Assembly: GCA_910592345.1 (NCBI GenBank) | Contig: CAJVPI010000073.1 | Span: forward strand, 1 to 60,881 | Reading direction: 5' to 3' | DNA: 60,881 bases | From: Paraglomus brasilianum | Taxonomy: Eukaryota | Shown here: positions 106 to 58,967 of the stretch, piece by piece | Position numbering within the stretch: position 1 is the first letter of the stretch | Layout of the letters: each line of letters starts with the position of its first letter | Position numbers and translations under genes: made by a program | The notes under the pieces: model-generated | Told to the model about the DNA's origin: nothing | Databases searched by the model: none | Seen by the model: only the letters and a program-made list of their open reading frames with translations

Positions 106-1167
106 CTTCAAGCTTTCCATCGTAATTTTTGTATTCTTTAACATATCTATCAATAATCAGCATACGTGTACCTGTTATTCTGCAGACGCGGTCAAATTTG
201 CCTTCAAGCTCTTTGCATTCTTTTTTAAATAACAAATACCATTATGTGAGCCCTCAGTACATATAAATAGATGGGTTCAGTAAAGACATACCATATCGAG
301 GAAGAACATGCTTTTCAAAATATTCTTTGGCTTCCTCCTTGCTCAAATCTCCAACAACATATGGGGTTGCATGTGGGATATGTAAAACTAAGCAATAAAT
401 GTGGATTAGAGAATAATAAACATTTACATTGCTATCAAATATGATTATAAGAAGGACTTACGATTTACGATCCAATTAAAAAAGAATGAATCGGAAGAGG
501 TAAGCACTACATGAAAGCGACCCATTTCTTTTGTATTTACCACCATCCAGTTCAGAATTGATTTAAGAAGAATTTTTCCCTCTTCCGAATGCCCAAGTTG
601 GCTAAACATGTTTGCTTCATTGATGACCAAAATGGGTGGAGGCACCTTGTAACCATCCCAGTGGGTCCAATTCGGGAGAGCATTACCAATACCATCAAGC
701 AACTTACGGACATTGTTAGAAGTAATTGGATCCCCACCAAATGGCTTAATTTTTAACTGGATATCATTCATAATGTAATTGATTTCTCCCCGTTCAAATA
801 ACTTTTTAAAGATATCCGTATATTTTTTGAAAAATGGCGCGAATTGCGAAGATATTGAATCGTATATCATCTTTGGTGTGTCAAATTGTCCTCCACGACA
901 GTTGATAAAAATAGGGTTGAAATCGCCTCTACTCGTTACCTCACGGATCAGTGCGGTTTTCCCAGTACTAGGAGGACCTAGAACGACATGAAGCTCCGGT
1001 TCGGCACTAAATGCATTTTTAAACTTGACAAGTTCTCGTTTCCGATTGAAAATGATCTTTTCACGAGTAGCTTGTGTTGTATAACGAGCAACACGACCAG
1101 TTCTAAGTGTATTTGAGATACAAATACCGCCGGTAGGCAGGCGTTTAGTTAAACCGAAAATGAGCAT
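106..1167 (-). CDS. P-loop ATPase (ATPase_2/archaeal-ATPase-like); 3' end runs off the window
   Basis: Exons 1167-462, 387-292 and 219-106 join in frame via GT-AG introns. Walker A GPPSTGKT follows IFNRKREL; the Walker B-like motif is LVINEAN; then HVVLTSSD and YVVGDLSKEEAKEYF. Confidence 0.85.
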
Positions 1168-1237
1168 GGCTGTGTTGCAGTGTAAAGATTTTTAGATATA
1201 ACCGTGCAACAAATTTGACATGGTGCACCAAATCTAT

Positions 1238-2750: not shown

Positions 2751-3345
2751 CTAATTAAGTATGGTAGCAAGGCCCATCTGTTTCTTTATTCGACGAGCGG
2801 ACTTGCGCTGATAGTTGTAATAGTAATTTCTTACTTGTAACGCCGTTCGTCCTTCCATTTCGTCGGCGATGAGTTTCCATCTTGATCTTGCGGAATTATG
2901 TAGGTGAAAAAGTTTCCAGAAGGTTTTCTCTTCTTCTGGTGTGAATTCTCCTAGTTTAACTATGGAAGATATTGGAGTTTACACATAAGTAAACGGATAA
3001 AATTACAGGCATGATATCGTATCGTTATACTTACTACCATCGGCCAAATGGTTGGTATATCTAGTAAAGATTACACAAAACCATGAATATGGAGAAGCTA
3101 CATTGGACTCTTTTCTTGTAAGGGCTCACGATAATTACTTACCGTTCTCTTAGCTGTTTGGCGTTGCGTGAATTTCTCATAACTGCAGCTATTTTCTTGT
3201 AGTCGTGTTTATATTTCTTCACCAATTCAATAATGCGTTCATCTTCCTAATGTGAACAGAAAATTATCCATCAGGACGCCGAGTAAACTTGGACAAAATC
3301 ATTTGCTAGAATTGTTATGCGCACTTCTTTACTGAAGGAAGTCAT
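2751..3345 (-). CDS. Small two-repeat Myb protein, cluster copy 1 (119 aa)
   Basis: Exons 3345-3325, 3246-3143, 3060-3035, 2959-2751, all GT-AG, 360 nt in total. MTSFSKE/EDERIIELVKKYKHDYKKIAAVMRNSRNAKQLRER/YTNHLADG/KLGEFTPEEE...WKLIADEMEGRTALQVRNYYYN...QMGLATILN*. Absent from the ORF track. Confidence 0.9.
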
Positions 3346-6300
3346 GTTGAAAGAGCGTCTAGGCGTTCTTCGTCGATTGCAGGGGATTTTTATATCTCGA
3401 CTGTGTCGATCCAAATACGAGAGGGAGCGGAGTTATTTTACTTAAATAGGTCAATGTGTATTGTTTATATGCCACGTATTCCGGGGGGAGGGGGGTGGTG
3501 GCAGCGCTTTCAGCAACTACCAAAAAATGAACGCTAATCTTGATATTTATAAAGCAGTTTCCTGTAACGTCTTTTCTGTTAATACTTTAATCAATATTAA
3601 TATTAACAGCAATGCTCTTTTTCTTATCATTATCATCATCGATACGGGCATCATGCAACAAATATTCCTATTTCAAAGATGGGGGTCATTTAGGATGCGT
3701 TTGTTTTCCACTCTTTGTAAAATACCTTATTAATACACGCTCACAATGATATCATATGACCCCCCGATTTGTATGCCATGTGGGCTTAAAATAGCGAAAA
3801 CCCCTGTTTCGTCATGTAGGTATCTGACGAATAGAGTAAAGTTTTTCTATCGTAATCTGTATGCTTTTTTGCTCTAGATAAGAGAATATCGAATAATTCC
3901 ACGTGATCATGGGTATCCATCAAGTAAAAGGTTTGGCTATAGTATATAGTAATAGCACAATAGTACAATACCATTAACTATGCAATTTGTTTGTAAACAG
4001 TACTCTCGATTCTTCATAAACTTTAAGTTTACTGCAAAATGATTTGATGGGGGATATTAAAGTTCTATTAAAAGATTTTTATTTATGATGCGATGTAAAC
4101 TGATAGCTATTAATGCAGCCAAGTCATAATCTTCTACCTCCCCGCTTACCAAAAAGTTTGGTTTTTTTTCAGTACGACGACTCCCTGCGTATTTGCGCCC
4201 AATTCAGACTAACTAATTCAAGTAATGACCTTCATCGTGCATACTTAATATTCTTATGCAACCCCTCCTTCCATTATTCATTAGAGGAAAAACTTTTGTG
4301 TGTCTTCCTATTAACCGGCTAAGTTACTTGGCCATTCCACATGGCCGCACGGATCGAGTCTGTTGTATGCTCACACGGACCCATCGTATTTTGTTCAAGG
4401 ACAGGTCTAAAACTTGCGGATAAATAAAATTTCAAGAAACAATATTAATATATCGCTTACGTTATATGCGTATGCAATATGCATGAGGCTGGTGTGGCTG
4501 AATATCAGTGTATCGGGTAACTTCATTTTGTAGAAACTATCAGAATTCTTTGTAGTCCAACATCATCAGATATCATATCAAGCATTGCAAGTTTTCGGTC
4601 AGCAAGCCCCGCAACATCTCTTCCTCTCCTTACAGCCGTCTTAAACTTTCGCAAATCTTTCGATTCTCCCTTCTACTTCTACGCATCCCCCTAGCCATCA
4701 ATGTGTAACATTCAAAAATCTATATTGAGCCTTCTTTGCTTGATGACAAATAATGTGCGATATTCTAATAGGCTATATCCTGCAAAATTGAGGCATTCAT
4801 GACTTGCAATTGTGCTTCAACTGTTGTGTCCATGATGCAGACGTTCAGGTCAAAATTGCAAATATTTGGAATAAAATGTACAAAAGTATACGTTGTTTCA
4901 TTGCCCAATGACAATTGCAACAATTACATTTTGCTAACGAGAATTTTGCCTGCAAATATTTCCATAATGACTGTTCAAATAAAAACGCTACTGCTCTAGT
5001 ACTAGGTTATCTGTCAACTCTGATTATGGTTCTTGATTGCAAAATGCATTATCTCTAAACTCAATGTAGATAACAGTGCATCACATTGATTGTTTCTACT
5101 CATAGTTTTATTGAAGCTGTCTGACAGTTGGCTATATGAAAATCATTAGAGCCTTGACCGCGTTAATCATTATGATCGAGACTTTTCTCGCCCATGTCAG
5201 AGCTCAACTAGCTGGATACGGTGGCTCGATCAACGCATAAAGACAAATTATCCTGCAAAGTCGACAGCAGTAGTAACACCAATAATCGCCTGTATGTGCA
5301 ACCGTTGGCATTTTTTGTAGATGTGACCTCCAAAATCGCCAGTAGATAAAACCTCTCTTCAATAGACGCTGACTCCTTCGGACTTGCCAAAAATGTGCGC
5401 AAAAGTTGTAGAAATTTGAGTATTTTGTAGAGTATTTTGTCACGTTCTCACCCAGTCAAAAAACTTTATATGCAAAATTTCAGAGATTTCATGGTTGTGC
5501 TAAATGCAACACTAAGCAGTGTTCAATTATTGAGCGCCTCTTACTCTTAAAGTGGTTTGACTTTAATATGTTATGCTAAATACTTCCATGATACTTTAAT
5601 TCTTCTATAATCTGGCAAGCTAAAAAAATTTAACAGAGTATTGATAGGTGCCCTCGTATATATTAGTATGTCAAATATTTCCAAAACATTAATCATGCTC
5701 TCTGAAAATAATTAATTAGAAAAACGTTTAATTTTTATAACAAGCAATTATTCATTCTTATCATTGTTGGAATTGGTTTATGTGGAAGTCATTGAATACG
5801 GATAGGTAATAAATAACACGTGAATTTACCAGTCTGGCAAAATAAAGAAAAACAAAGACATACGGCATTTGTAAAGTCGCCTGCATTGTTTACTGGGAAG
5901 TTTGCACATCTTTCAAGTTGTCTGAATATTATTGAGACCTTGCTTAAATACCACAGCGGTCCATCTGCAAAGCATTAAGCTGAGATTAGGCACTAATTTT
6001 TGACATTAAGCCAACTTCCTGAGTAACACCGACACTATGTTTGAATCCTGCTTTCATAATATGTCACGTTGCTTATAGTAATAATAATAGTTGTCAATCA
6101 TCTGTCAAAACGTTTGTAAATCGCGCTTGCGCTATCCATTGAGAGAAATATTATGTGGCGCGATTGATATGAAAAATGTTATGTAAGGTTAACTCCAATT
6201 TTCTAACAGACAGATAATAATTTATGTTATTTAAGAATAAATATTTATGAAACACATGGTTCGTATAATATGGTTAGATAATTAATGGCCACCCAGCTCG

Positions 6301-6699
6301 GTTCAAATTCGAAGAACATTATTACTTAAAAGACACCATTAACCATGTCTCTCTATCAGGGTCTTTATATAATAGTTAAGTTGGGATACCTGACTAAGTC
6401 ATGTCGTTGCAAGACGATCGTCGACATTTCATATCAAATTAGATAAGAGAAGCATGAATAGACCAGGCATCTACCCATATACCGCAGTGGTACCCAGGCA
6501 ACTCATAATATTTATTAGTCAAGTATGGAGATGACGTACAGTGTGAAAGGCAATTACATATTTGATCATTGACCATAGCAATCAACATTATTAATACCTC
6601 TTTAATAGCTAAAATCAGTAGATTGTTGGCAAATTTTTAATATGCTATTCTTTCTCCATTGCTCTCAATAACTAACTAATATCTGTACTTTATCAATTG

Positions 6700-6835
6700 T
6701 ACTAATTAATTAACATGTTTTCTGGAATAGCCTCTACCATAGAACGACTTAAATCTTGCTGATCTTGTGGCATTCTTTTTTCGACGTTTCTTTTAACAAC
6801 ATTCTAAAGATTTTCTATTGGGTTTAAATTGTGGA
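6700..6835 (-). mobile_element. Tc1-like (DDE_3) transposase relic
   Basis: Minus strand reads NLNPIENL*NVVKRNVEKRMPQDQQDL, matching the Tc1 SPDLNPIENLW motif with W mutated to a stop. Confidence 0.7.
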
Positions 6836-8207
6836 ATCACAGTATGATCTATGCTGTCAACCTTTTTAAGTTATTATAGATAGTCCGCATTGGAATCTTT
6901 GTGTCTTTGTGAATGAATATCTTTGGCTGAGTGGACTTTTATGTTCCAAAAATGTAATATAGTTTTTCGCTGGTTTTTTAAATCGGACTTGTCACTTTGT
7001 TAAATAAGTGACTTCTAAAGACATTGCACCATTTAATAAAAATAAAAAGTAGGTTTTCGTGATCAAAACAAAAACAAGTTTACGTAATTGGTTTATTTTT
7101 GGGAAAGTTATGCGAACTTAAGTCTATGCCAATAATTTCTTTACAATTCAAATTCCACAAACTCTATTTTTGATATATATATTTGAAAATAACATGATCG
7201 AAATGAATGGTTGGACAATATTCTTAGTAGAGCATTGTGCTTCAGTGGGCTGTTCTCATTAGAATTTAGGAGCAGAAGATCGAGAAGCTTATTTTATAAA
7301 CACTGTCATTATGCTACTGGCTAAGCGATGGCTGTGTGAGAAAGTATCTCGGCATATACATATATCACTGATTCATTCAAGCATACTATTGTCCTTATTG
7401 GTTATGTCAATGACGAATAGAGTTCATTACGGATTACTTCTAAAGCAACATTCGGTATATTATATATGATTCATAATAGATTCCAATTTTTCTGCTCAAT
7501 GGAAATATATCACTGCATAGTCATGAATTGCAATAAAGCATATTCAGATTTGGGTTGCTAAGATGCCGCTATCATCTAGCACAAGAAGCATAATCACGTA
7601 CTAATCCGGTAGTTGGCCACTGGTTTTGGTACCTTGTTTAATCGAATAGTTATTATTGACTTGTTATATCTTAACATGGACTAATATAAAATATAAGCGA
7701 ACACACTAACAGACATATTATAATACTTATATGAACCTCTATGTACTGTTGTCAAACTATCTGAACCAACAGCTGACATCTCCCTTGAAACATAGCGCCT
7801 TGTGGATGCTCACATCAATGTATCATCGCAGAATTTACATGTACATTTGATTCTAACGAGTAAATATGGCTTTTAGTTGTACCATTTGTCGATGAGCTGA
7901 TGACAAGGGCAAAGGTTAGCAATATTTGTCGGTTGTAGTCACATGATTTGTGATTGTCTTTCAACAACGACTGGTAGTCTTTTGGGAAAGTGAGATCGAG
8001 GAGGGGGAAGAGCCCGAACAACTGGATGTTCTAGCTATATCCGAGTTAGGTCAGCAATGAAATGTGAACTTTACATGTGTAATAAACAGTCTTACACAAA
8101 TCTATCCCAAAAAGAAATAATGACACGAATTATACGAAACATCTCACATGCATGCATTGCAGTTGTTTTACGAAAAATTTATTCCTTTGTGGAATTTGTA
8201 TGGTAAG

Positions 8208-8287
8208 GTGCGAATTGTGCGAATTGTGCGAATTGTGCGAATTGTGCGAATATTGTGCGAATTGTGCGAATTGTGCGAATTGTGCGA
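8208..8287. repeat. 9-bp tandem repeat (GTGCGAATT), about 8-9 copies
   Basis: Directly visible, with one 2-nt insertion mid-array. It lies ~200 bp past the stop codon of Myb copy 2. Confidence 0.95.
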
Positions 8288-8487
8288 GTGTTGAAATCGA
8301 AGCCTTTGCGTTCGAACGAATAACGATTCATATTTGCAAATTATAAATTAGCTTAATTATTGAGGAGGGTGTTATACTATAGTTACAAAATTAGCTTACT
8401 GAAAAGAAAAAGAATAAAGAAAAGGGAAGTGTTCGATCAAAAGTCTTTGTCATCGTTCTCGTAATATTGCGCGCTAAAAGATGTTTA

Positions 8488-9144
8488 TCAATTAACGATG
8501 TAGTCAATCGACATTTTTTCCGCTTGGTTACGATGGCTATTATGCCAGAAATTTTTTACTTGAAGTGACGTTCTTCCTTCCAACTCCTTTGCTATTGTTG
8601 ACCACTGGTGACCATATTTCTTGGTCAGTTCAAGTATCTTCCGACGCTCTGCGATCGTAAGAGGTTTCGTATTGACTGTTTAGAAAAGAGAACAAAATTG
8701 AATAAGCGTGTGTTTGCAAATTACGATCTGTATGTTGGCTTTATGGGCTATATCGTTGGTATGTACTGTATGTAAATATATACTTACTTCCGGGACATAA
8801 ATGAAATAAATAACTAATGTGGACATATTTTTGGGAAAAGAAAAAGAGAGGGTAAGAGGTTAGACCCGTTGGCAAGTTTTTATAACTTTATATATTATAT
8901 AATTTCTAATACGACTGCACTCACCGTTGCCTAATTGACTTTGGTGAACGATGGGGTTTCGATATACAAGAAATCTTCTGCCATTGAGAGCCATGCGTCT
9001 CGTAATGTTTCAACAATTCATTATCCTCCTGTGTTTGTATACAAAGAGGAAGAAAAGGCAAGGGTCAACACATATGAACCCCCTTTAAAACATGTCGTAT
9101 AGATCATATATGTAAAAGCCAAGTACCTGGGATGTCCAACGCAT
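8488..9144 (-). CDS. Small two-repeat Myb protein, copy 2 (111 aa)
   Basis: Exons 9144-9127, 9028-8925, 8813-8788, 8675-8488 (336 nt). MRWTSQ/EDNELLKHYETHGSQWQKISCISKPHRSPKSIRQR/YLFHLCPG/NTKPLTIAERRKILELTKKYGHQWSTIAKELEGRTSLQVKNFWHN...KMSIDYIVN*. Confidence 0.9.
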
Positions 9145-10531
9145 GTCCACTCAACAAATATGGCGTATAAAAGAAGACCGTAGTGATAATAATTCAAAGT
9201 AAGGAAGGGAAACAAAATGTCAGTTATTTGAGGCGGAGGTTGTGTGGTGGTTGATGGTAGTGGTGTTTGGTGGGGGTTTGCGGATGGCAGAGTTATTTAT
9301 ATTAGGGTGACTAAGACATGTATTCCGATTTGATATTTGGGTTTGCGCATTGACAGTCAGTTTAGTAATTCCGCGTATTCGGTTTGGATCAATAGAAAAC
9401 CACCAATGACTAATATAACACCTTTTCCAAATATTCCTGTATTACAAGTAATCCTTAGCTTCCATGTCTGTCAATGTGCATTCATGTCATTTAAAGTAAA
9501 ATATGTCAACTGTTCAGGAGAACGGATCATTGTTTTCGAAACATGGCTGACGTTGTGAAACAGACATGCTGCCGATAATTGTTCCTCGGCTCCGGACAAT
9601 GCCACCAGGAAAAAATTATGGCATAAAGATTATATATCTTTTCTTTACCGAAATTAACTGAGACTAACTTTAATAAACCCGGATTAGATAATTAATTGTG
9701 CTTAAAAGTACAAGGAATAGGGAAAAAGGATTCCCTCATTATTGTTGATTACGTAGCACCTTTGGACTAAGGGGTAATAAAATGGCGATGGTATCGTGAA
9801 CGTCAACGGTACTAGGCACGTGCCTGTACTAGTACACACACGCTGTGTGAGACGTAATCTATCTATCAATCTGTTATCTATCTGTGTATCTTACAATGTC
9901 TGCATGCACCCCATCTAACTTTGCCTCTCCCCCGCCTTTTCCCCACTCTCCCACGTTTGACAAATATTTTTATTGTCTCGTGACCGATGAAAACCAATTT
10001 GTTACTCGAATGATGGGTTTATCAATCGGAGCGCTAAAAAATAACGGACCTACAGTAACATTAATTTACATACATACAAAACAAAAAGAGTGATAAGGTT
10101 TGAGAATACAACAAGGCAAAAAGCGCTTATTGATAACTCAATTAAGTAATAGCATTGAAATGCTCCCTTCCCCATATTAAATGTGAACACTAATGCCATT
10201 TCCAAAAAGTACTAATCGGGTAAGATATATCTGCATGCTCCTTATATATTTTATTTTTTTTTACTGCCGGGCCACTTCTTTTGAGCAGCCGGGCAATTAT
10301 GTACAAAAAAAAATAAAAATAAAATAAAATAGCGAGTGTTATGTTAATGGACCGTGTTCTTATAGTCACGTGATGTGACGTAAATGGTGTTTGTTATCTC
10401 CAAGGTCAGTCAGAAGACTGTGTGTCGTAAGAGGAGGCAGCATTAAAAAATTAATTACATATGTGTTTTTGTACAATGTGGATGTGACTCGAGTGAAGAA
10501 TAAGATGAAGAGATTTGTCCCGTTTGTCCGG

Positions 10532-11223
10532 TTACGGGTTAGGGTTGGGATTAAGGAGATTTTTAATAGCCATTGGATCATATGATTCTTGTTGCCGCTT
10601 TGGCCGTACTGGACGCTCGTGGTTTTTATGGACACGCTTCCGCTTCTCGGAATACCAGAAGTTACGGACTTGTCGATCAGTTCTGCGGTTGTTTAGGAGA
10701 GAAGCGATGTAGGCCCACTTGTTCCCGTGTACCGACTGATATTCCAAAATGAGCTGCTTTTCCAATTCCCCGAGAGGAGTACGGTTGACTAGTAAAAAGA
10801 AGGAAAGCAAACAAATAAATAAATAAACAAACAAACAAGGAGTTGTTAATTTTGCTGCAATAAATTATACGAATTGCTTACTTGTAGGGTTTAAGAGATA
10901 GACGTACCTAACAAAAACACATTGGAAAACCAATAATTGGATTAATATATAGCTATTCTGTTTAGAAACCTTTAAATATATCAATTAATACTAACCTATC
11001 TCTACAAGCCTTGGGATGAGCGCCAATGGCTTTTCCAATCTCTTTCCAATTGTTCTTCTTCTCACTCGCCATATCGATGAGCATACGCTCTTTCTATGTG
11101 TTTTCAGTGGGCAGATGTAATTGAGTAAGACAATAGGCGTTGGCTAACCATTCACAGTTAATTCAACAACAGCTTTCTAACCTTGTTGGTCCATTGACAT
11201 TCTCCGCTCGCAAATTTGCTCAT
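10532..11223 (-). CDS. Small two-repeat Myb protein, copy 3 (140 aa)
   Basis: Exons 11223-11182, 11093-10996, 10907-10882, 10788-10532 (423 nt). ...QWTNK/KERMLIDMASEKKNNWKEIGKAIGAHPKACRDR/YVYLLNPT/NRTPLGELEKQLILEYQSVHGNKWAYIASLLNNRRTDRQVRNFW...PMAIKNLLNPNPNP*. Confidence 0.9.
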
Positions 11224-13741
11224 AATTAAATGCTTATAATGCTAGATGACTTGTGTGTGTAGGGGTCTTTTTATGTCCATGAGATGTATTGTTATGTTTC
11301 TTTAAAGTGGTTGTTTATACATTGTATACATGACTCATTGAGATCTTCTAATCGTTCGGCAATAATGGTAGTTTTTGCAGCATTTTGTCCAATCGCATCT
11401 CCACGAAAAAAAGCTCAATCGATATACAAAAATCGGCTAGACCGTCGACTATAGACAACCCAATGACGTTCTTGTGGCTTGAATGAATTCACACGTTTGT
11501 GTTAATTCAAAAATAAAGTTACTATTGTTTCGAACAATCTAATCGGCGGCTGTCACAAGTTTTTGCGTCTACGAAAGATATTAGTCGCATGTGAAAAAAT
11601 TGACAAATGTTATTGTTAATAATGTATTAATATCCCTATATTCAGATAATCTAATGTCGTATGACTTATATTTGTATGCACCTGTTCATTTTTTACTCTC
11701 ATATCATGCGCCCTGATTAAAGAGGGTAATATTCATAGATTCGACAACACGGATTATTGGTTAAGGGTACCATTGGTGAATAAATCGGGCGATGATTATC
11801 TTGGGCTCGCGAGTTTTCGCAAGTTTTCTGATACAGTTGGCCCCTTGCGCATACGCCATGTATCAAGAATGTTAATTTTCAAACAATAGGCATGCATCAC
11901 AAACATAGCCGTCTTATCATTTGTAATCGCGTTCTAGGCATCGGGTGCTTACTAAAAAGGAATGCCAAAAGATATCTGCATCGTTATCCATTGTTAAACG
12001 ATATCATCTTTTTTTTTTCTGACGGGAACCCTGCGTATCCAGGGTTCGGGTACCGTTAACGGAAACACGTTTGTATTAGCGCATAGTTTTAAATAAGCAT
12101 ATATCCTGTTCAATTATCTCTCTGCTTTTCTCATTGCTTTCCATGCTCGTTATGTTTCTTCATAGTTAGTCTCATCCGGTAAGGTTAAATTTCATTCAAT
12201 TCGATTACCAGTACCGTTACCGTCACTGTCACTTTTACGAGATACTTTCGCAGGCAGTTGAACACCTTTTCTCTAAATCCGTATTTTGAATCACAAATAC
12301 CGTTCGCTGACGTTCTTCCGCTTGTTGACAGGAAACAAAGAATGCAGGAAATCGATTGTATGCTTCTGAAGGGAACATAGAAGTAGATGGGATTCTTAAC
12401 TAGAAGGCAACTCGGACGTCGTTAATGATTCAGCTTCTTCCTTCTCTTGTGCGGCATTTGGAAAGGAACTTTGGATGAAAGCTTGTGTTCTAGTTTTCAA
12501 TCGAAGGTTGGTATTATATAAAGTTGTTCTGGGAAAGCAAGAGATTGAAATCAATACACAAGGGCAGCATCTGTCATCATTTAGATACGCTGGAAATGAC
12601 CATGAGTAAATGTCTCTCATCATAACAAATGAATCATAGACAGGCAAGATCTTGTTCCTGATTCACAATAAAAGAACACAAACTTCTTGTTCCTGATTCT
12701 CATTTACTCAAATCGGTTTGATTTCGTGGTAGATGTGTAACGACTAATTCAATAATATCGTTTACTAATCAATCAAGTTGACAATAGATCGGCATCTTGG
12801 AAAACGAAACAAGTTATTCGGTCAATAGGTGAATAGTCATGGACAAGATCCCCGTCTGAGATGGTTCGAACAATTGCGTCTGTATTAACATCATTTAATT
12901 TTTGAACAGCATTCAACGTATCAAGTTTAGACACACTTTGAGGGACGTTCGAATTTGTAAAATCATTGACAAGAATGAAATCGTGCATTGATCATTTATA
13001 ATGCAATGTCTATGTACGCTCGGAGTAATCGATGCCGATCAAAGAGTGAGTAATTTGAATGACGTTGTGCTTAAAGACGACGAAATGTTACTGACCCTTG
13101 TTTGCTGATTGAAAGGTAACGAGATTCATTTAAAGCAACTACTACAAGTAAGAGGCTATTCGTCGCACAAGGTTGGGGGTTTATTCCGTGCAAACTTGAT
13201 CTATTTTCAGACAACAATAACATGAATCAATATAATACAAAATGCCATATAAAGTGTGGAAATGTGCGAACGGGGGGAGATGTTAGTGCATTGATAAAGA
13301 TTCTATGATGGCGTTTGTCAGCTGTTATAAACAATGATCGAATATGGAAGTATCTATTGATGTTAATAACGATTGGAGAACAATGGCAATATACCGAGTC
13401 AGGAATTGGCCCATTCCACCTGCATGAGATATATTCCTCATCACACACCCCCTCTCCTTCAAGCCTAATTGGTTTGTCACGGGACTTCGAGCTAAGTACA
13501 TGTACGGTCGAGATGTTTTAATATATAGATTTCGTATGAACAAAAAAGAAAAGCATAGAGCATAGAAATAAGGGAAGCTTATATAAAGGATTTCATAAAT
13601 TTGTAGGTATTTGCGCCGTAATAATGTTCGAAGAAATGGTTGATATGGATTGGCGCACATAAACTTAAACGAAAGGGTGGGTGATCAAACGAATGAAGTT
13701 GTCGGTACTCGAAACGTAACGAAAATTCACGAAAGATGCTA

Positions 13742-14432
13742 CTAGACTCTGCCGCAGATGTAAGATACCGACATCTTTCTTGCAGGGTCACGTCTTTTGG
13801 CTATACGAAGGACATTATAATAAAAATTACGGATCTGTAACGAGGTTCTTCCTGGAAGTTTTCCCGCAATCAATGCCCATTTTGGTCCGTGTATCTCGTA
13901 TAATCTGTAGATTTCTGTTTGTTCCGATAAACTGAGTTTGCTATGGTTTACTGTAAAAGTTAAAAGGTAGAAGGCAGATTTTAGTATACAAAAGTTTTTT
14001 CGAAACGCTTGACAAAATACGTTATTCACTTACTGGTATTGTCGAGATGATTTCTGTATCTAAAGTATTTTAATTGGATTAAAAAGACGTTATTTTACAT
14101 TTACAACTTTTCGTGTCTTCAATAAACAAAATCTGCCAAACTAATTTCGTTAATCTGACCTTTCCCGGCACTGCTTTCCAGTCACATTATTGCCAATAGC
14201 TCGCGCAATGTCTCCCCAACGTGGGCCGTTTTTCTCAACAAATTCTTTCAATAGATAATCTTGCTGTAACAAATTATTAATTTTAATACGAGATTAAAGG
14301 CGGGCATCCGCTCAGACTGTACTACATTGCTGAATATGGCAATGTTTATAAGAGAGAATATGGAAAACTCTAAATTTATTTATTTATTTTTTTTTCACGT
14401 ACAAAAGGCGTCCAATATCTTCTCCTAGCCAT
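13742..14432 (-). CDS. Small two-repeat Myb protein, copy 4 (122 aa)
   Basis: Exons 14432-14403, 14263-14160, 14059-14034, 13950-13742 (369 nt). MARRRYWTPF/QDYLLKEFVEKNGPRWGDIARAIGNNVTGKQCRER/YRNHLDNT/NHSKLSLSEQTEIYRLYEIHGPKWALIAGKLPGRTSLQIRNFYYN...KMSVSYICGRV*. Confidence 0.9.
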
Positions 14433-15849
14433 CTCGTTACAGTGGATGGCAACGAACTAAATCTCGGTTGGGCCTTTTTTTTTTACTCGATATCATAAAT
14501 GTGTCTGGAAAAGCGCTGTCTGTAAACTCGGGATGAGTTGGGTTGTATATATACACGTATCCATATATACGAGACTCATTCAATATTATGGTTAAATACG
14601 TTTATAATAACCTGATTTAGGCTCAAATATGGCTTAGACAGCTTACGCACTGCTGCTAGTAACGCTTTCGTAAAGATTTTCTTTGCCGATGAACAACGAC
14701 TCGCTTACAAATGCCAATTAGAATTCATCTACATACAGACTCATATGACCTTTAACAGAAATAAAGTTATTTTTCCCCACCTACGATGGGCTGATAAGCG
14801 AAGCAAGTTATACGTCTAATTTAGACTTCCGATGCATGCGGATGATTATCAGGAGAGAAAAAGTTTCAGAGGGTAAAAGAATACCCAATAAAGGAACTGA
14901 GCGTTGCTGCAAGAAGACTTTATGATTGTTGCCCAGAAGCATCTTTTCCCCCAATTAAAAAAACTTTGAGAAAGCCAAGCCCTCTTGCATATGATCAACT
15001 ACCAGCTTGGGACGATCGCCAACTTGAAGTGAGAATGAATCGTTTACATTAACTATTATTCATCTATGCATGTGATGGTTCTTGTTCCCACAGAAGAAAA
15101 CGGTTCGATGCGCCTAACGAATCTTGTATGAATATTCTTAGTCTACTTGACAATTGTCGAGGAATAAAACTTTTCTTGTCGTCTGTCGAGGAGAGGACAA
15201 CCCCACACTTTAATAAACTTGTTAAGAACCATTGCTTTCCCGTTCAAGCTTTTAAGCAAGGTTCTTTGTCTGGAGAGAAGCAAGTCGCGGGCGTACTTGC
15301 AACGGCTACATAATCGCGCAGGGCCATTAATATTAATGGTAAATTTTTTTTCGGTTTGATATCATATGATCATATATTTGTAGATCATTAATCATAGGTT
15401 ATTTATATACAGTATTTAGTATTAGGGATGGGAAAGACCATTTAATTTGTTCCCTCGACGACAATAGCGCAAAAACGATGACATAATGCGGAACCCCATT
15501 TGTAGATCTGATCGGCATTTCGAACCTGCTTTGTGCATGAGAAAAGAATTTTGCTTGGCCACTTGGTCAAATGGTAAAGAAACATTTATTCTTCTCCTTT
15601 ATCGTTATTTTTTTTCTTTTGACGCTAGTATTAACCCGCTATTTACAATAGTGGGAGAGTGTGGGAGACGCTCATGATAATCTCTTGAATGAGACATGCC
15701 TGTACGTATTTTTTTTTTCATGTATGCTGTGCAATCTCGTTCTACTTTTAATGGTTCTCTCTCTATCTGAGTGGATGGATAGGGTAATTTGCTGCGCCGC
15801 CATGGATATGTGTCGTACTGACGCTTTTATACCCCACAAGAAACTGTTT

Positions 15850-15903
15850 GTTTGTAGAATGTCCTAGATAGTTTGTGTGTAGATGTTTGTAGAATGTCCT
15901 AGA
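15850..15903. repeat. Short direct repeat (gtttgtagaatgtcctaga x2)
   Basis: Two copies ~35 bp apart, upstream of Myb copy 5. Confidence 0.8.
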
Positions 15904-16113
15904 CGTTATGATGACGTACAGTTACTGAATACATGTGCTACATGGGACGCCTAATACATCAAATATCTAATAATAATAATGGTTTGACCCGAACTTGCAA
16001 GAACATTCTCGAGCTATAATTCTTATATCCGCAGAGGGTACGTACAAGCTTAAATTGCCAGAATCATCCATTCTTGCGTCTTTGTTGCTAACGAGTCAAT
16101 ATTACGTTTACTT

Positions 16114-16829
16114 ATGATGCCGTGTATCTCTGTTTCTCGCAAAAAAGACTCATGCGTCGAGTATTGGTCTCCTACGGTAAATGGTTCGCATATACTGGTC
16201 CACTAGTATGTGTTAGGGTAACTGAAACATTCACTTGTAATAGGAGGATAAAGAGCTTCTGAAGCTGTACGAGATCCATGGTCCGAAATGGATGGATATT
16301 GTCAACAAGATGAAGACAACGCGTAATCATAAACAAGTGCGCGAAAGGTAATTATTATGTGTGTTTATTAATACAATCGGTATTTGTGTTTCTCCCGAGT
16401 CAGTCGATGTTTTATGGTCCAATTCAATCAATTATTAGATATATAAATCATCTTAGGCCAGGAAGTTAGTTTTCTTCAATCGTAGGCAAATCATTCCATA
16501 ACTTCATTGATGCTTCGTCAAATGGTGCATTAGTGCAGTAATGGTCATATTATTTAAGTTGATATAACGTGCAGTACTCTAACAGAATTTATGTTCTTTT
16601 TTTACTAGTCAACTTTGACCCTCTGACCAAGGTTGAGGGAGAAGCAATTATAAACCTGTACAACGAAATCGGTGGCAAGTGGACCGAAATTGCTGGGAAG
16701 CTGGGACGCACCCAATTACAAGTACGCAATTTCTGGTATAATAAGCGTCGAGGCGAACGATCTCGCCGATTGCATAGACGAACCGCGAGCAAACTTTCGC
16801 GTATGTCAATTGACTTTTTGTTGAATTGA
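16114..16829 (+). CDS. Small two-repeat Myb protein, copy 5 (137 aa), inverted relative to the others
   Basis: Exons 16114-16176, 16244-16347, 16439-16464, 16609-16829 (414 nt). ...YWSPT/EDKELLKLYEIHGPKWMDIVNKMKTTRNHKQVRER/YINHLRPG/NFDPLTKVEGEAIINLYNEIGGKWTEIAGKLGRTQLQVRNFWYN...RMSIDFLLN*. Confidence 0.9.
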
Positions 16830-19800
16830 TTTTATGGCTATTCGGAGCAGCATTCGTACCAGATCAAGTCCATTGCTCTGCATGTTGACTTTAAACTGTT
16901 ACATACGTTAAGATTAAGATATTTATTGTATTTACATGAGTTTTGTTTATGTATGAACATAATAACAAGTAATCAATACTTTATTCTATAGAAATTTTGT
17001 TTATAATACTAATACTAAACTTAATAAATTCTACACGCGATAAGTTGTAAGTATTGACATGATTAATGATTGGTTGATTGCAATTAGCTCAAGCTCATGT
17101 GATTAAACAATGCCTACGAATGACAAAGTTCTCCTTGCATCGATTTTATCTTCTGAAGTAATCCGTGTATTGAAACAATGCTCAGAATGGTTACATGCGT
17201 CCCAAAAGACGACAATGAATCGGAATGCTCGTCGAATTGCAAAGTGATATAGAAGGCGTCTCTGAACAGAGCAGATGCTTTAGAGCCATCGAAGGTGGAT
17301 GTCTCATTCTCTAGCTCAACCATGAGATCAGGTTTTAATACTTTTAACGAATTTAGTCTCTCTCTCTCTCTCTTCCCTCCCTCCCCCACTCTTCTTTAAG
17401 GTCAATGTGATGTCAAGCTAGCCACTCATTTTCCAACAATTATTTCGAAAGTAATTTTTGTCAGTATTAAATTCGGGGATTAGAGCTTTCGTCCTTCACA
17501 ACTTACTATAATCCGTAAAAAGAGTTTTTCACCGACCACCAAATCAGCACGCTATCGGTATGATAGATCAATTAATTACGGTACAATTTTTTTTTTCATA
17601 TAAAGATGATGACAAGTCTAATTTCCTGGTCTATTTCAAAATATTTGATTTTACCCTATACAATTTTTTCTGCTATTTGGAAATCTACTTAGGCCGTTGT
17701 AGTTGGAAGTGGAACACATTACCCACGCTCATCAAGCTTGATTTCATTCAATGTCTAGAAACGTATCGCTGCACTCCTGGAGGAAGCAGATGCATCTTGG
17801 ATGTAATAGCAATAATTATAGGACACCTGACTGGGTGGTGTTGGTTGTATTGCATCAACGTGGACTGCACTTCAGATTGGTTCGTTGAAGACAGAAACAG
17901 ATTGCACAACAATTTTCACGTTATTGTCGACTGCCCAATGTTTATGCATATGCTGTACATACAGATCGATATCTCATAATGGTCCCCGCATATGATTATT
18001 GGGAATATCTATTGTAACGTGAGCAATTCGTTCATAATACGAATTCGCAAGAACATCAAGAGGACATGCATCATGGTAATGTTAGGAAAGAAGAAATAAT
18101 GACTGATTTCAAGTTTTTATTGCTCTCTTCATACATTCTTATTGGATCTTTCCATAATCATTCCCCCACGTAAAATTCGTTCGGCTGTACTGTTTCATGC
18201 ATCTGCAGATACTGTATATTGGCGGTTACATCCTATCACGAATATGCAACTGCCTAATTAAGGGCAGCCTTAGTCCGAATCTTTGAAATCTATCTGGATA
18301 TCGCGGTATTTCGTGCTCGCCAATGTAGACTTGGTGATACAGCGATCCCGATGTAGATCAGATGCGACTATGCGTCAGCGATCCACTGCTCTAATACTAG
18401 ATTCTGGGTAGTCGATATAGTCTATAATGAGGACTGGGAAGTGTGTAATGGGTTCTGTAATGGTGTGGGTGAGTTGACCTCTAACGGCGATGTCATCCCA
18501 GAAAATATCGAAGAGGAAGCAGTACTGCCGATACTCCTTTGCAAACAACTTGATAATAAACTCGGAGCAATTAAGAATAATAATAAGGTTTAAAGATTTC
18601 AGGGGTTCAAGACTGTTGAACGCCACAGATTTGTCTTACAACCTAATTTTCTTTCTTTGCACTAATTAATCTCGTGATTAAACTAGTAATGCTACTTGTT
18701 ATTAAGATTGTTTGAGATTTGGTGGGGGTAATCTTGCCGTTATAGCAATTCTTGTTGTTATTGCAATAGTCTACTTTGCAAGGGGTGATGGATAAATAAC
18801 GCGACTCGCATTCATTGTCATCTTGGAAAAATCGAATAAAACGAACGGTTTCATTGTATCGGCCACGCCTAATTCTTTAAAACAATTAACAATCCAATCC
18901 TAAACAATAATCCCATTCATCTCTTGGACCCTAACACTACCTGTCCCATTATAGGCTTTTACATCTCTGTCTTTTCTTATATAAGCCCTGTTAGCTAACC
19001 TTTTTTTTTTGACATAAATATTTTTTACCAGGGAAAATTTCCATACTTTGAGCCAAGTACTATCACTAAGGCAATATTAGCACAAATTACCTTTGTTTAA
19101 TAAAAACATTTTAATTTACTGAATAGAAAGTTCCAGTTATGGCGTATGGAAATTTGTCAAATACCTGAAAGTGCAATGGGCAGGCGCAGAAGACAAGCTC
19201 TCAAATATGCATCTAGTATGCAATCATGCAACTTTAATGATACCGGAATGATGAACTGGAAGCAGCATACATCATCACAATCACAGATTGTCATTGTAAA
19301 CCCTGTCTCGTTGATAGCACAAGAGATACAGTTGGCCGATTACCGTGAATGATTACTTCCGGACAATTTTTAATCTCTACCTTTGACTGAAAGCGCATTA
19401 AGCTTGTTGAGTTTATTCGCGTGCATTTTGCTGGTCTTTGTTGACAATGCTCCGCACGAAAGGGAAGGCTAAATTACTGCACATGACAATTATTAATAAA
19501 ATAGTGTAATCATCATCAGTTTCCAAGTCCCGGGAAGAAGTATTTTATATTTATCGCATAGCCCCAATTTTTACCAGCAGAGAATCACGTTATACACATT
19601 GCGCAATAGTATGTTAAATATGATGCGTTTTCGCACCAAGTCGTATTAGGAGCATAGCGTCGCGTATTTACTATATTTACTTTCCAACCTCCTGTTCACA
19701 GTTGATTGAATTCTCCATCCGATGTAAATACTATCGAGTATGTTACTATCCTCCATTCGCGAGCAAATTGTTTGTTATACAACATTTGTTAGCCCGCAAA

Positions 19801-20286
19801 CACCTGACATCATGATGTCCTTTGAGAAATCGTCTTTTTCCAGAATTGTAATAGCCTATTTATCTGCTTCCCGATATTTTGGGACCAAAATTTTCCCCGA
19901 GAATATTAGTCTATCGTATAGTCCATGTTTGTAGGCTGTCCTTGTTTTGGGTAAGGTGTAAGGTATGGAAATATGGAAGCAAGGTTTCTTAAACCCGTTG
20001 CAAGATAATACCATAACTGGGGGGGCGCAATATATACAAAGTGCATATCAAATAGATTAAACACGAACTTTCAAACTTAATTTTCATTGGCCAAAGTCTA
20101 TAAATGTGTGTTCTATAGAAGATAATTACAAGTTCCACCTCATAACGATAATCCAAAAGTCCATAAAAAAGTTATCTTCTATTTTTACAGTACAGCCCAG
20201 CTGCAATATATGATGGGGGCTACACTTTACTTTACAAGGCCCCTCTGCTTTTTTCACCCACGTCAAATTCACCGTATGCTCGGCAC

Positions 20287-20883
20287 TTAGTTCAGCAACT
20301 GCGAAATCTCCATTTTGGATGAGCGTGTGTAAGCCGGGGGCTGTAGAGGATGGGTTACACGTCGAAAGCGATTATAACAAAAGTTCTTGACTTGGAGACT
20401 CGTCCTGCCAGAGAGATATCTCGCAATAAGAACATATTTAGATCCGTGTATTTTGTGCAATTGGCGAATTTTGTTCTGTTCGTCGAATGTTAGTGGGCTC
20501 AAATCAACTATATCAGATAAAACTAGTATTAGACAACACAAAGTATATATTTATTTACAACCGAAAATGCTGTACCTACTTCCAGGACTCAGGTGATGAA
20601 CATATCTGTTAACAATGAATTAATGTATAAGTAAAAGACAACTATGTAACAATGACATGATTATCAAGACTGTTTTACCGTTCGCGAATGGATCTAGCAC
20701 TTCTCGTCCTCATTAATGCAGCAATTTGTCGCCATCGAGAACCAAAGACTCGAAACAAATTGATTAATTGAGCATCTTCCTATAGAAGAAAATGACGATA
20801 ATGAGGCAAAATTAACGGTAAATGTCACTAGCCTTTTTCTCTTTACTATTGCGACTTACAGCCGGCGTAAAATGCGAACTCAT
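20287..20883 (-). CDS. Small two-repeat Myb protein, copy 6 (123 aa)
   Basis: Exons 20883-20860, 20779-20679, 20605-20580, 20507-20287 (372 nt). MSSHFTPA/EDAQLINLFRVFGSRWRQIAALMRTRSARSIRER/YVHHLSPG/DLSPLTFDEQNKIRQLHKIHGSKYVLIARYLSGRTSLQVKNFCYN...KMEISQLLN*. Confidence 0.9.
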
Positions 20884-21924
20884 CTCCAAGCTTATCAATT
20901 GGTGATGATATAGTGTATCTCATTTATAAATGAACGAGCGTTAAAGTCACTGTGATTAGCCCATCACCTTTATCCTGTTGCAAAACCTGATTTCCTCCAT
21001 TCTTTTGCATGGTGTAAAATAAAGGTTCCCGAGACTATGGTCAGATGATATCATCGACGACAATACGCTAACCAATGAGCGTGGAGTGTTGATGCTATAG
21101 TCTTTTTGCGATTGCCTAATCTTGGCGATGATACCAACAGAACGGGTTGATAATGACGACAACAGACTTTCGATGGTGCAGAATAACTGATCAATTTCGG
21201 TAATCAAATGAATGAATGTGATATTTCAAAACCGGTTTCCCAAATTAAAAATTTTTTTTTTCCTTCCCAAAGAGGCTTTTCATTGATTCAAGAAGCAGTA
21301 ATACATTTTCATTTGTGTAAAATACAGTAGTAGTTTCCTATAGTACTTTTTTTTTTCCTTTCTTCTTTTTAAACAATTACAGTACGGAGAACTACCAATA
21401 ACATTAAAGTTTCCGATACGCAAAGGACGGATAATAGAGTAATTTTTTTCCTTTTTAAATTATCATCCCGTCTACGATACCCACTACTCCCAGGACGAGG
21501 AGATTGAACTGGGTATTTATTATAGAGCGATGAGCAAGATGTCTCCTATTTGGGACTCGTAACTAATAAATAAATCACAGATCTAATTGTTCTCATAGTA
21601 CAGCGCCAAGTATTTGACCATTGCAACAAGGGGAAATCAAAATACAAAATAAAAAATAAAGCAAAACTATAATTGTCACCACTTGTCAATTGCTCTGTCC
21701 GACAAGTAACACTCCAAGGAAAGCAAATCCCATCAAGCAACAACGATTGACAGATAATGCGTTCAGTATGTAAAACAGTATCCAAGAAACAGTCGAGAAA
21801 TCAAAAACCAAAACTCAAATGGAACAAAATTACACAGCAAACAAGAAGAACATACATATTTCGTATCTGAAAAAGAAAAAACTATAAAAAACGAAAAAAG
21901 AGAAAGAGAATACATCTGAGAGAA

Positions 21925-22749
21925 CTAGTTCAACAAGTTTCTAATATTCATCAAACTCTTGATTCGCCCACGGGGTTTCTCTTCGCCTCGTACATTCTGA
22001 GTCGAACTTGCTCCTGACCGTCCCTCGTAATTAGGTCGCTCATCAACTGCAGCCTGCTGTTCCATAGGAGCATCCTTTTGACGTTTGTTCTTTCTGCAAG
22101 CGGTACGGTGGAAGAAGTTTTTTACTTGTAATGCCGTGCGTCGAAAACCATCCCCATTTCGCATACGACGAGCAAATACGGCCCACTGCGGGCCTTCTAT
22201 TTTATTCCATTTGACCAATGCACGCTCTTCTTCAATCGAAAAACGGTCATGGTTTACTATATAATAGCAGGGAGATGTACAAAACGAGAATAAGTAATCG
22301 GATTCGGATGGACATGAAAAGAATACTAGATTAAAAGATTGATGAGAAAACATACTCGAAGGGTCTAAGTGGTTGACGTATCTATAAAGCAGACGTTGAA
22401 AATAGATATTCATCGTTAGTGATGGTCGGGTTTTCATCGTACGAGAAACAGAAAAGAATAATATGGAGAAAAAAGGTGTCGACAATAATGACGACGACGA
22501 CGGCGACGACGATGACGAAAACACTAACCGTTCTCTAACTTGTTTGTGGTCTCGTGCCCCGTTCATAGCTGCAGCGATGCCTTTCCAGTCGCTACCATGT
22601 CGTAAATGTAGTTCGAGTACGAGCTTGTCTTCCTGTAATTTGCACATAAAAATTCAGCCAACATGTCGCAAATAGCAATGCCTCTTTTCGCTGTGCTCTG
22701 GTAAAAGACTTACAGTTGCTGACCAATGCCCTTTCTTGAGCGATGGCAT
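21925..22749 (-). CDS. Small two-repeat Myb protein, copy 7 (165 aa)
   Basis: Exons 22749-22714, 22632-22529, 22381-22356, 22256-21925 (498 nt). MPSLKKGHWSAT/EDKLVLELHLRHGSDWKGIAAAMNGARDHKQVRER/YVNHLDPS/NHDRFSIEEERALVKWNKIEGPQWAVFARRM...RTALQVKNFFH...LMNIRNLLN*. Confidence 0.9.
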
Positions 22750-30559: not shown

Positions 30560-30950
30560 CCATGCACAAGAAGTCAGTCTCAATTTGTCTTGCTCTTTAA
30601 ACATTAAAATTTAATTATTCAATACATTTTACAGAGTATAAACCCCAGAATTTCATAAATGCTGCCAATACCTAATGCAACTAAATTCTTACACTTTTCT
30701 AAGTATTGTTGAGGATTAGGGAAAGAACTACTGTCGAAAAGGAGTTGAGTTTTTTGTGAATAACTGATTGACATCTTTTTGAGTATACTAAAAGTATAAA
30801 GTATTTCGTCACCCTTTCACTATTTCCCAATAAAAAATAATAAAATCAAACCACTCTTTCTTATAAACCATTATTCTGATGTAAAAATTTCAGAATGTCT
30901 TGTAGATACAAAGATATAGGTTCGTATAATAACATTTTACAAAGCTAAAT
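30560..30950 (-). mobile_element. Possible heavily decayed MULE/FAR1-type transposase relic
   Basis: Frameshifted fragments (LYLCIY...EWFDFII, FPNPQQYLEK, AFMKF..G) loosely resemble the segment after the MULE domain. Weak match. Confidence 0.3.
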
Positions 30951-30959
30951 TTTAAATTT

Positions 30960-37994: not shown

Positions 37995-38162
37995 CTATCT
38001 ATCGCCGTAACTTAGTCGCATCATTGATGGTGACGTAAATTTCATGATATCAGCGACGAAGCCAGCGAAAGGAGACAAGGAGTGAAGCAGTTCTTTAAAT
38101 GCTTGGCTGTTATGGGGAAGATAGTGCACAACAAACAGTTCATGTCAATATAAAAATCTAGT
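37995..38162 (+). pseudogene. HMG-box pseudogene fragment (more decayed copy)
   Basis: IYRRNLVASL...FHDISDEASE...QGVKQFFKCLAVMGKIVH, with deletions relative to the 55.4-kb copy. Confidence 0.7.
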
Positions 38163-55360: not shown

Positions 55361-55597
55361 ATCAACTCGCTCTACAAGCGTACACACTGTAATGCATTTA
55401 TAATCTATCGCCGTAACCTAGTAGCATCATTGAAAGAAAAAGGTGGTGACGTTAAATTTCAAGATATCAGCGATAAAGCCAGCGAAGCCTGGAGAAAGGA
55501 GAGACAAGGAGTGAAGCAGTTCTTTAAATGCTTGGCTGTTATGGGGAAGATAGTGCAACAAACAGTGTGCAAACTTCATATCAATATAAAAATCTAG
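55361..55597 (+). pseudogene. MATA-type HMG-box pseudogene
   Basis: Open stretch KRTHCNAFIIYRRNLVASLKEKGGDVKFQDISDKASEAWRKERQGVKQFFKCLAVMGKIV, then a frameshifted YQYK. In-frame TAA at 55358 and no ATG upstream of the domain. Confidence 0.8.
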
Positions 55598-58333: not shown

Positions 58334-58967
58334 CTAATCAATTCAACTAATGTAAAGCTATATAAATAATAACAAACAACAAAACATCATAATACAATAT
58401 ACAACAAATCTATTACAGACAACTAACGGTTGTTATTATACACTTGCTATTCCATATACAGTGGTTAGCTGTCTATAATAGATTTTATACACTTGCTACC
58501 ATATAACCAGCAAACTTGGTTGTCATCTACGATGTAATAGATTTTATACACTTGCTATTGTATGTTATATACATAATATCTGACATAAAGGCAGTTAATC
58601 TTAAGCACGGACGGATGTTAATACATTATAACTAACAATAAAATAAAGTATCAGAGATTCTATTTAAACATTTATATTGCACTATATTAATATGTAATGT
58701 TTATTCGTTTTAAACTAGTTTGTGTATATTTAATCCAACCACACATATTTTTGTTATCTTTCGTTGATTTATTTATTGATGGATGGGATGAATTAATTGT
58801 ATACTATCTATGCGTGAAGTGACACATCATATTTGTAATGTCGACCACTGTATAAATACTGTATGTTATATTGTATATTTTATTCTATGTTACTGTTACC
58901 TATTATGTGACATGATATACAAATACATTGTATTGTCATATATATAAATTACGCTGTCATAGACACG

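What the first reader, a model, noticed from the sequence alone, without database searches (positions are those of the whole stretch)
2751..22749. Cluster of seven diverged miniature two-repeat Myb genes
Seen: seven genes in 20 kb, each 111-165 aa and consisting of little more than two Myb repeats plus a short tail. All have introns at the same three positions (phases 0, 2, 1) and all splice to open frames with canonical GT-AG. Introns and flanks show no similarity by eye and the proteins are very diverged, so this looks like an old array kept under selection rather than a recent duplication. Copies 1 and 2 are missed entirely by the ORF track. Inference: a lineage-specific clustered transcription-factor family. 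I know of no described fungal Myb array like this, but cannot verify novelty.
Basis: partly seen in the sequence, partly recalled or inferred. Interest (0 to 1): 0.85.

Follow-up and report, generated by a model that had tools for sequence, protein, structure and literature searches.

The report
Old array of miniature Myb repressors
A root-symbiotic fungus carries seven very small, long-diverged gene-regulator genes side by side, at least four of them spliced into RNA, and each ends in a short shared tail that likely recruits the fungal co-repressor Tup1 to switch target genes off.

Summary
Confirmed. Seven genes at 2751-22749 encode 111-165 aa proteins made of two Myb repeats plus a tail. All have three GT-AG introns at the same codon positions (phases 0, 2, 1) around a 26-nt micro-exon. 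Database records name the contig's proteins as Paraglomus brasilianum; five of seven are already annotated, without function. RNA contigs from four studies support 12 of 21 predicted junctions (all of g3, g4, g5, g7). Paralogues are 26-51% identical with saturated synonymous sites. Three have 82-98% identical orthologues with near-consecutive locus numbers in P. occultum, so the array is old and under selection. No transposase or terminal repeats were found. The fold is R2R3 Myb and three key DNA-contact residues are kept. New here: every copy ends in M-x-[ILV]-x-x-[IL]-hydrophobic; four match the published fungal Tup1-interaction pattern exactly. Best reading: minimal DNA-binding repressors that recruit Tup1 (inferred, untested). 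'Lineage-specific' is not established, because other Glomeromycota could not be searched properly. No paper describing the array was found. The scan earlier noted a four-gene single-repeat Myb cluster in another fungus. New variant of a known kind.

The parts
2751..3345 (-). g1, 119 aa, exons 3345-3325, 3246-3143, 3060-3035, 2959-2751; two Myb repeats, tail motif variant (L at the first hydrophobic place)
   Evidence: identical to public CDS 2216; no RNA cover in the four runs laid
8488..9144 (-). g2, 111 aa, exons 9144-9127, 9028-8925, 8813-8788, 8675-8488; not in this genome's public annotation
   Evidence: P. occultum 9238 is 99/111 identical; no RNA cover
10532..11223 (-). g3, 140 aa, exons 11223-11182, 11093-10996, 10907-10882, 10788-10532; most diverged copy; strict Tup1-type motif at 10573-10550
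   Evidence: identical to CDS 2217; two junctions seen and the third implied in run X18
13742..14432 (-). g4, 122 aa, exons 14432-14403, 14263-14160, 14059-14034, 13950-13742; not in this genome's public annotation; weakest tail motif (ends in Cys)
   Evidence: P. occultum 9236 is 100/122 identical; two junctions seen and the first implied in run X15
16114..16829 (+). g5, 137 aa, exons 16114-16176, 16244-16347, 16439-16464, 16609-16829; strict motif at the C-terminus; two alternative splice forms seen
   Evidence: CDS 2218; three junctions in X15, exon-3 skipping in X9
16038..16147 (+). extra 5' intron of g5 (GT-AG) in one RNA contig; removes the annotated start, leaving the first long in-frame ORF at 100 aa without the first Myb helix
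   Evidence: (one contig, depth 3.4)
16439..16464 (+). 26-nt micro-exon of g5 (end of the R2 recognition helix and start of the linker); the same 26-nt exon is in all seven genes and skipping it shifts the frame
   Evidence: skipped in one contig of X9 (depth 11.8), included in X15
20287..20883 (-). g6, 123 aa, exons 20883-20860, 20779-20679, 20605-20580, 20507-20287; strict motif at the C-terminus
   Evidence: identical to CDS 2219; AlphaFold model and Foldseek; no RNA cover
21925..22749 (-). g7, 165 aa, exons 22749-22714, 22632-22529, 22381-22356, 22256-21925; most conserved copy; strict motif at the C-terminus
   Evidence: identical to CDS 2220; P. occultum 9235 155/158 identical; all three junctions in 4 of 4 runs

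Best explanation
The seven genes are an old tandem array of minimal two-repeat (R2R3-type) Myb proteins that likely bind DNA through the two repeats and likely repress transcription by recruiting the co-repressor Tup1 with a short C-terminal motif. Shown: gene structures, splicing of four genes, saturation of synonymous sites, orthologues in a second species, conserved tail motif. Predicted: R2R3 fold with a disordered tail. Inferred: (1) one ancestral three-intron gene was duplicated in tandem before the two Paraglomus species split; (2) each copy docks two recognition helices in the major groove, and the differences around the kept K128/K182/N183 equivalents give somewhat different site preferences; (3) the tail folds on the Tup1 WD40 propeller as the Mat-alpha2 N-terminal motif does; (4) with no room for an activation domain, the net output is repression.
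For: Structure and splicing. Selection: mean pS 0.83 against pN 0.44 over 21 pairs, dS not estimable in 17 of 21 and dN/dS 0.28-0.37 in the other 4; 10 of 13 coding differences in RNA contigs are synonymous. Orthologues at 82, 89 and 98% with locus numbers 9236, 9238, 9235, each on a 90,746-nt contig. Fold: mean pLDDT 83, six helices, tail under 50; best solved match Trichomonas Myb2 bound to DNA, TM 0.76, rmsd 1.7; best sequence match c-Myb, E 4.9e-40, against 1.2e-18 for the best Cdc5. K128 is K in 6 and R in 1, K182 is K or R in 7, N183 is N in 7 (residues named in PMC3240579, passages). Tail: the published pattern [VI]xx[IL][LM] (PMC4943189, parts 1-3 of 5 read) lies in the last 14 residues of 4 of 7; tail shuffles give mean 0.16 and never 4 in 20,000. 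A relaxed form fits 7 of 7 and the three orthologues; 0 of 191 other Myb proteins fetched have a similar motif in their last 16 residues. That paper reports Tup1 in Mortierella and chytrids and that Mat-alpha2 binds the Tup1 WD40 domain through IxIxxLL.
Against: No binding or repression was measured. The same paper calls the motif poorly specified without its first aromatic residue and its fission-yeast enrichment not robust (P=0.034). Three copies (g1, g2, g4) miss the strict pattern, and the relaxed pattern was drawn from these sequences. Yeast repressors also bind Sin3 and Cyc8 through similar hydrophobic patterns (PMC10163088, passages). Tup1 was not looked up in Paraglomus. g1, g2 and g6 have no RNA cover, and both g5 contigs are forms that cannot give the full protein. 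g3 leaves the clade in one tree and joins it with unstarred support 84 in another. The third Trp of R2 is Tyr in all seven and the c-Myb N179 position is Leu or Arg, so the bound sequence is unknown.
Confidence: 0.57

Rival explanations
1. They are DNA-binding Myb regulators, but the tail binds another partner (Cyc8, Sin3, a degradation factor, or each other), or they act as passive competitors that block sites of a larger Myb activator.
For: Only 4 of 7 meet the strict pattern; hydrophobic patterns of this kind also bind Sin3 and Cyc8 (PMC10163088, passages); short Myb proteins are proposed to act by competition in fungi (PMC8660761, passages).
Against: The spacing and composition match the Mat-alpha2-type Tup1 motif, and the motif is kept at the free end of tails of 17-60 residues that share nothing else, which passive competitors would not need.
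Confidence: 0.28
2. On the arrangement only: the array is a left-over of local duplication within a small-Myb family that is large across arbuscular mycorrhizal fungi; the clustering has no function and is neither unique nor lineage-specific.
For: Other Myb proteins with a similar R3 helix occur elsewhere in P. occultum (P0023). Spacers are 1.0-5.1 kb with no shared promoter words above chance (10 against mean 5.2, max 12). Orthologues of g1, g3, g5, g6 were not found in P. occultum. I recall, without a call to back it, that Rhizophagus and relatives hold many short two-repeat Myb-like proteins with similar tails. The right half of this window shows other local duplications.
Against: Linkage seems kept between two species (locus numbers in the same order), six of seven genes share a strand, and an E-box-like word is about twice as common across the array as expected (31 against 14.2, sd 3.8; 24 against 23.2 in the rest, pattern picked by eye).
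Confidence: 0.5
3. The genes are Myb-like ORFs of, or carried by, transposons such as PIF/Harbinger.
For: Transposon Myb/SANT-like ORFs exist (recalled) and these fungi are rich in transposons.
Against: No transposase family among 97 flanking and intergenic frames of 61 aa or more in 1.2-31 kb (one weak unrelated hit in a microsatellite); no long clean inverted repeats around any copy among the 25 longest of 86 pairs; domains are PF00249/PF13921 pairs with a c-Myb-like fold; positions appear kept in a second species.
Confidence: 0.03
4. They are effectors sent into the plant nucleus that mimic plant R2R3-MYB repressors.
For: g7 transcripts come from rhizosphere metatranscriptomes and a 162/165 identical protein sits in a plant-labelled record; the proteins are small and basic.
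Against: The first Myb helix starts within 1-17 residues of the start, leaving no signal peptide (by eye; no predictor run). The tail fits the fungal Tup1 pattern, not the plant LxLxL pattern that binds TOPLESS.
Confidence: 0.04

Closest known systems
R2R3 (2R) Myb transcription factors: c-Myb R2R3, Trichomonas Myb2/Myb3, Arabidopsis WER (PDB 1h88, 3osg, 3zqc, 6kks)
   Same: Two tandem helix-turn-helix repeats, same fold (TM 0.71-0.76), K128/K182/N183 equivalents kept.
   Different: Almost no sequence outside the repeats; R2 third Trp is Tyr in 7 of 7; R3 helix reads RTxxQ[VI][KR]N instead of RTDNAIKN; shared three-intron structure with a 26-nt micro-exon.
Characterised fungal Myb factors (Magnaporthe MoMYB1-10, Pleurotus PoMYBs, Aspergillus FlbD)
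   Same: Fungal proteins with one or two Myb repeats that regulate development.
   Different: Magnaporthe has 10 Myb genes whose repeats sit in long disordered regions and that do not group with each other in a tree (PMC8660761, passages); Pleurotus has 20, three of them two-repeat, mean 486 aa (PMC6073129, passages). The passages seen mention no tandem array. Here seven related minimal genes lie in 20 kb.
Mat-alpha2 / eh1-like Tup1-interaction motif (PMC4943189)
   Same: Hydrophobic spacing [VI]xx[IL][LM] in a disordered end of a DNA-binding protein; met by 4 of 7.
   Different: C-terminal rather than N-terminal, preceded by an invariant Met, joined to Myb repeats rather than a homeodomain; binding untested.
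Expanded small 2R-Myb families of protists and tandem plant 2R-MYB arrays
   Same: Entamoeba invadens has 27 two-repeat Mybs, proteins from 103 aa (PMC10887745, passages); the nearest Atlas clusters are 124-181 aa two-repeat Mybs of mostly protist label (scores under 0.9, leads only); plant subfamily S6 forms arrays of three to six (PMC4603784, passages).
   Different: Not fungal; no shared terminal motif among the relatives fetched (0 of 191).

Membership tests
R2R3 (2R) Myb transcription factors | Two tandem Myb repeats (PF00249) | tested here: met
R2R3 (2R) Myb transcription factors | Three helices per repeat, R2R3 geometry as in DNA-bound structures | tested here: met
   predicted model of g6 only: six helices, TM 0.76 to 3osg
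R2R3 (2R) Myb transcription factors | Regularly spaced Trp or other hydrophobic core residues | tested here: met
   aromatic or Leu at the six positions in all copies except Cys at the last position of g6; many are Tyr, Phe or Leu rather than Trp
R2R3 (2R) Myb transcription factors | Key base-contact residues K128, K182, N183 of c-Myb | tested here: met
   K/R, K/R, N in 7 of 7 (numbering counted on the alignment, residues)
R2R3 (2R) Myb transcription factors | Sequence-specific DNA binding | not testable with these tools
   needs DAP-seq, SELEX or EMSA; canonical Myb sites are not enriched upstream of the genes themselves (17 against 18.2)
Tup1-recruiting repressors (Mat-alpha2 / eh1-like motif) | [VI]xx[IL][LM] outside the DNA-binding domain, conserved in orthologues | tested here: inconclusive
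   met in g3, g5, g6, g7 and in the g7 orthologue; near misses in g1, g2, g4
Tup1-recruiting repressors (Mat-alpha2 / eh1-like motif) | Physical binding to the Tup1 WD40 domain and repression | not testable with these tools
PIF/Harbinger transposon Myb-like ORF | Adjacent DDE transposase and terminal inverted repeats | tested here: not met
Cdc5/Cef1 splicing factors | Large protein with N-terminal two Myb repeats and a long C-terminal part | tested here: not met
   111-165 aa; Cdc5 chains score well below c-Myb

The most novel reading that the evidence does not exclude
An ancient, order-conserved fungal transcription-factor array: seven minimal Myb repressors, each with its own DNA preference and a common Tup1 dock, deployed at different stages of the mycorrhizal life cycle and switched off by skipping a conserved 26-nt frame-shifting micro-exon. 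If the array extends to other Glomeromycota it would be a Hox-like regulator cluster in fungi.
Probability: 0.12. Interest if true: 0.85.

Novelty: new variant of a known kind. Interest (0 to 1): 0.52.

Why it matters
Almost nothing is known about how arbuscular mycorrhizal fungi control their own genes. A conserved set of minimal factors, little more than a DNA-binding unit and one docking motif, can be tested outside the fungus (yeast repression assays, DAP-seq), which matters for organisms that cannot be transformed routinely. It would also be a clean natural test of the open question whether fungal Tup1 reads an eh1-like motif beyond Mat-alpha2. Two real genes (g2, g4) are missing from the public annotation. 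The parts themselves (R2R3 Myb, tandem arrays, short repressor motifs) are all known kinds, so the surprise is moderate.

Tried and rejected
No whole genome was held, so copy number outside the window and the presence of Tup1 are open. A degenerate pattern for the R3 helix hit 5 of 7 genes in the window; a slightly stricter form gave 5 metagenome matches, all 54-55% GC and without a Myb domain: chance. The 1.84-billion-protein profile search was swamped by multi-repeat Mybs (37,276 hits, 150 listed, unnamed) and says little about fungal relatives. Single-sequence search with g5 returned only a near-identical fragment (1 of 4 candidates); absence of other Glomeromycota hits is weak evidence, since one search missed two of its own six query proteins. 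Atlas feature hits were all under 0.9. Lack of RNA cover on g1, g2, g6 is no evidence against expression: runs were chosen with 13.5-23 kb as the query, only 4 of 24 were laid, and all are contigs. Rfam: no match. Shared promoter 7-mers and Myb sites upstream: not above chance. An eighth gene at 12.1-12.4 kb was considered (spliced RNA joint, motif-like end) and rejected: no Myb signal, no in-frame start seen by eye, and 2 non-Myb frames of 4175 with that ending is near chance by a rough estimate. No complex was folded, as no Tup1 sequence was at hand. Literature: searches (listings and abstract starts seen) showed no description of this array; most subscription journals are not in the library, and supplements of genome papers were not read and may list these genes.
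Full report
Observation. I read 1-24,000 and enumerated four-exon GT-AG models at each locus. One model per locus keeps the Myb register. Splicing by coordinates gives 119, 111, 140, 122, 137, 123 and 165 aa, with introns of 67-147 nt at phases 0, 2, 1 and exon 3 of 26 nt in 7 of 7. Spacers are 1.0-5.1 kb. Exon 2 and exon 4 of every gene match Pfam Myb_DNA-binding (14 of 14 at E<=0.04). Protein identity is 26-51%; blastn finds no similarity between copies, introns or flanks, and no eighth copy is in the window.

Organism and annotation. Proteins recorded on a 60,881-nt contig are named Paraglomus brasilianum CDS 2216-2220, a glomeromycete. They equal g1, g3, g5 (from its second Met), g6 and g7. 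g2 and g4 are skipped by that annotation. The records carry no function.

Expression. Of 24 runs listed I laid four: two metatranscriptomes on record and two guessed to be RNA, from four studies, all as contigs. Ten predicted junctions appear as joints (g3 two, g4 two, g5 three, g7 three) and two more follow from contiguous pieces (g3 intron 3, g4 intron 1): 12 of 21. g7 is spliced in 4 of 4 runs. g1, g2 and g6 have no cover. For g5, one contig skips the 26-nt exon (product 58 aa) and another has an extra 5' intron that removes the annotated start. Each is a single contig, so these are hints; no contig shows full-length g5. Skipping exon 3 would cut all seven proteins to 42-83 aa.

Age and selection. 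Across 21 paralogue pairs mean pS is 0.83 and pN 0.44; dS cannot be estimated in 17, and dN/dS is 0.28-0.37 in the other 4 (simple counting method, rough at this distance). Of the 32 differences listed, 13 lie in coding sequence and 10 of these are synonymous; the 3 others are in g5. P. occultum CDS 9235, 9236 and 9238, each on a 90,746-nt contig, are orthologues of g7 (155/158), g4 (100/122) and g2 (99/111). Their numbers run in the array's order, so synteny is inferred from numbering, not from coordinates. Orthologues of g1, g3, g5 and g6 were not found there, though one contig with 23 differences in 209 bases points to a g5 relative in another lineage. In a 52-row tree six copies and their orthologues form a starred clade (97/91) and g3, on a long branch, falls outside (bootstrap unsettled). 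With tails removed and the 22 best-scoring other rows, all seven group at support 84, unstarred. The shared intron set argues for one ancestor regardless.

DNA-binding unit. The g6 model has six helices, mean pLDDT 83, and a disordered tail. Best solved matches are DNA-bound R2R3 Mybs (Trichomonas Myb2, TM 0.76; c-Myb; WER); by sequence c-Myb leads. The residues named as key for c-Myb site recognition, K128, K182 and N183 (PMC3240579, passages), are kept or conservatively changed in all seven. Neighbouring positions differ from c-Myb and between copies, so the target sequence is unknown and likely varies.

The tail. After R3 the tails (17-60 aa) share only an end motif with an invariant Met. 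Copley (PMC4943189, parts 1-3 of 5 read) describes Mat-alpha2 binding the Tup1 WD40 domain through IxIxxLL and screens fungi with [VI]xx[IL][LM]. That independent pattern is met by g3, g5, g6 and g7; 20,000 tail shuffles average 0.16 and never reach 4. A relaxed, after-the-fact pattern fits 7 of 7 and the three orthologues, while 0 of 191 other Myb proteins fetched carry a like motif in their last 16 residues. So the motif is real and selected. That it binds Tup1 is inference: the paper itself warns that the pattern is loose, and similar patterns bind Sin3 and Cyc8 (PMC10163088, passages).

Transposon test. No transposase family among 97 frames in 1.2-31 kb (this was 97 frames besides the Myb exons and four scanned), and no terminal inverted repeats around any copy.

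Comparison and novelty. Two-repeat Mybs, small ones in protists (PMC10887745 passages), tandem arrays in plants (PMC4603784 passages) and short repressor motifs are known. The fungal surveys seen describe about 10-20 mostly long, unrelated Myb genes (PMC8660761, PMC6073129, passages). Eight literature searches listed nothing on this array, within a library that lacks most subscription journals. An earlier scan note reports four clustered single-repeat Myb genes in another fungus, so small-Myb clusters may be recurrent in fungi; I did not test it. I recall many short Myb-like proteins in other Glomeromycota but could not confirm this. Verdict: a real, selected, partly unannotated array with a plausible and testable repressor mechanism; new variant of a known kind; interest 0.52.

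Noticed in passing
window 1200-23000: E-box-like word TCAYRTG occurs 31 times against 14.2 (sd 3.8) expected; in 23001-60881 it is 24 against 23.2. Ten lie in the seven 800-nt upstream regions against 3.0 expected (g1, g3, g4, g5 only). Pattern chosen by eye; may mark control by a bHLH factor.
   Followed up: partly
window 12080-12403 (+): A spliced RNA joint (GT-AG, 12178/12332) between g3 and g4 leads into a frame ending in a motif like the Myb tails; no Myb signal or in-frame start found. Possibly a non-coding RNA or a decayed copy.
   Followed up: partly
window 14640-14871 and 18213-18557: Unspliced low-depth contig pieces of run X9 in spacers; could be DNA in the library.
   Followed up: no
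window 8208-8287: Nine-base unit repeated 8.7 times, 200 nt downstream of g2.
   Followed up: no
window 445-1191 (-): ORF with an ATPase_2 / AAA domain (E 3e-12) at the left end.
   Followed up: no
window 58963-60054 (+) and 55361-55597 (+): HMG-box gene and a second HMG-box piece; the second has an 80% similar copy at 37997-38210.
   Followed up: no
window 38268-40377 and 55651-57830; 41.1, 46.8, 49.1, 54.3 kb: A 2.2-kb direct duplication at 91% identity, and four related Asn/Gln/Ser-rich ORFs on the minus strand with no real Pfam match in the three scanned: a second, younger local gene array.
   Followed up: no
window 30946-32655: Cluster of mutually similar 50-240-nt repeats (71-85% identity).
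   Followed up: no
protein P0202: A record labelled as the plant Anthurium amnicola is 162/165 identical to g7; likely fungal RNA in a plant sample.
   Followed up: partly
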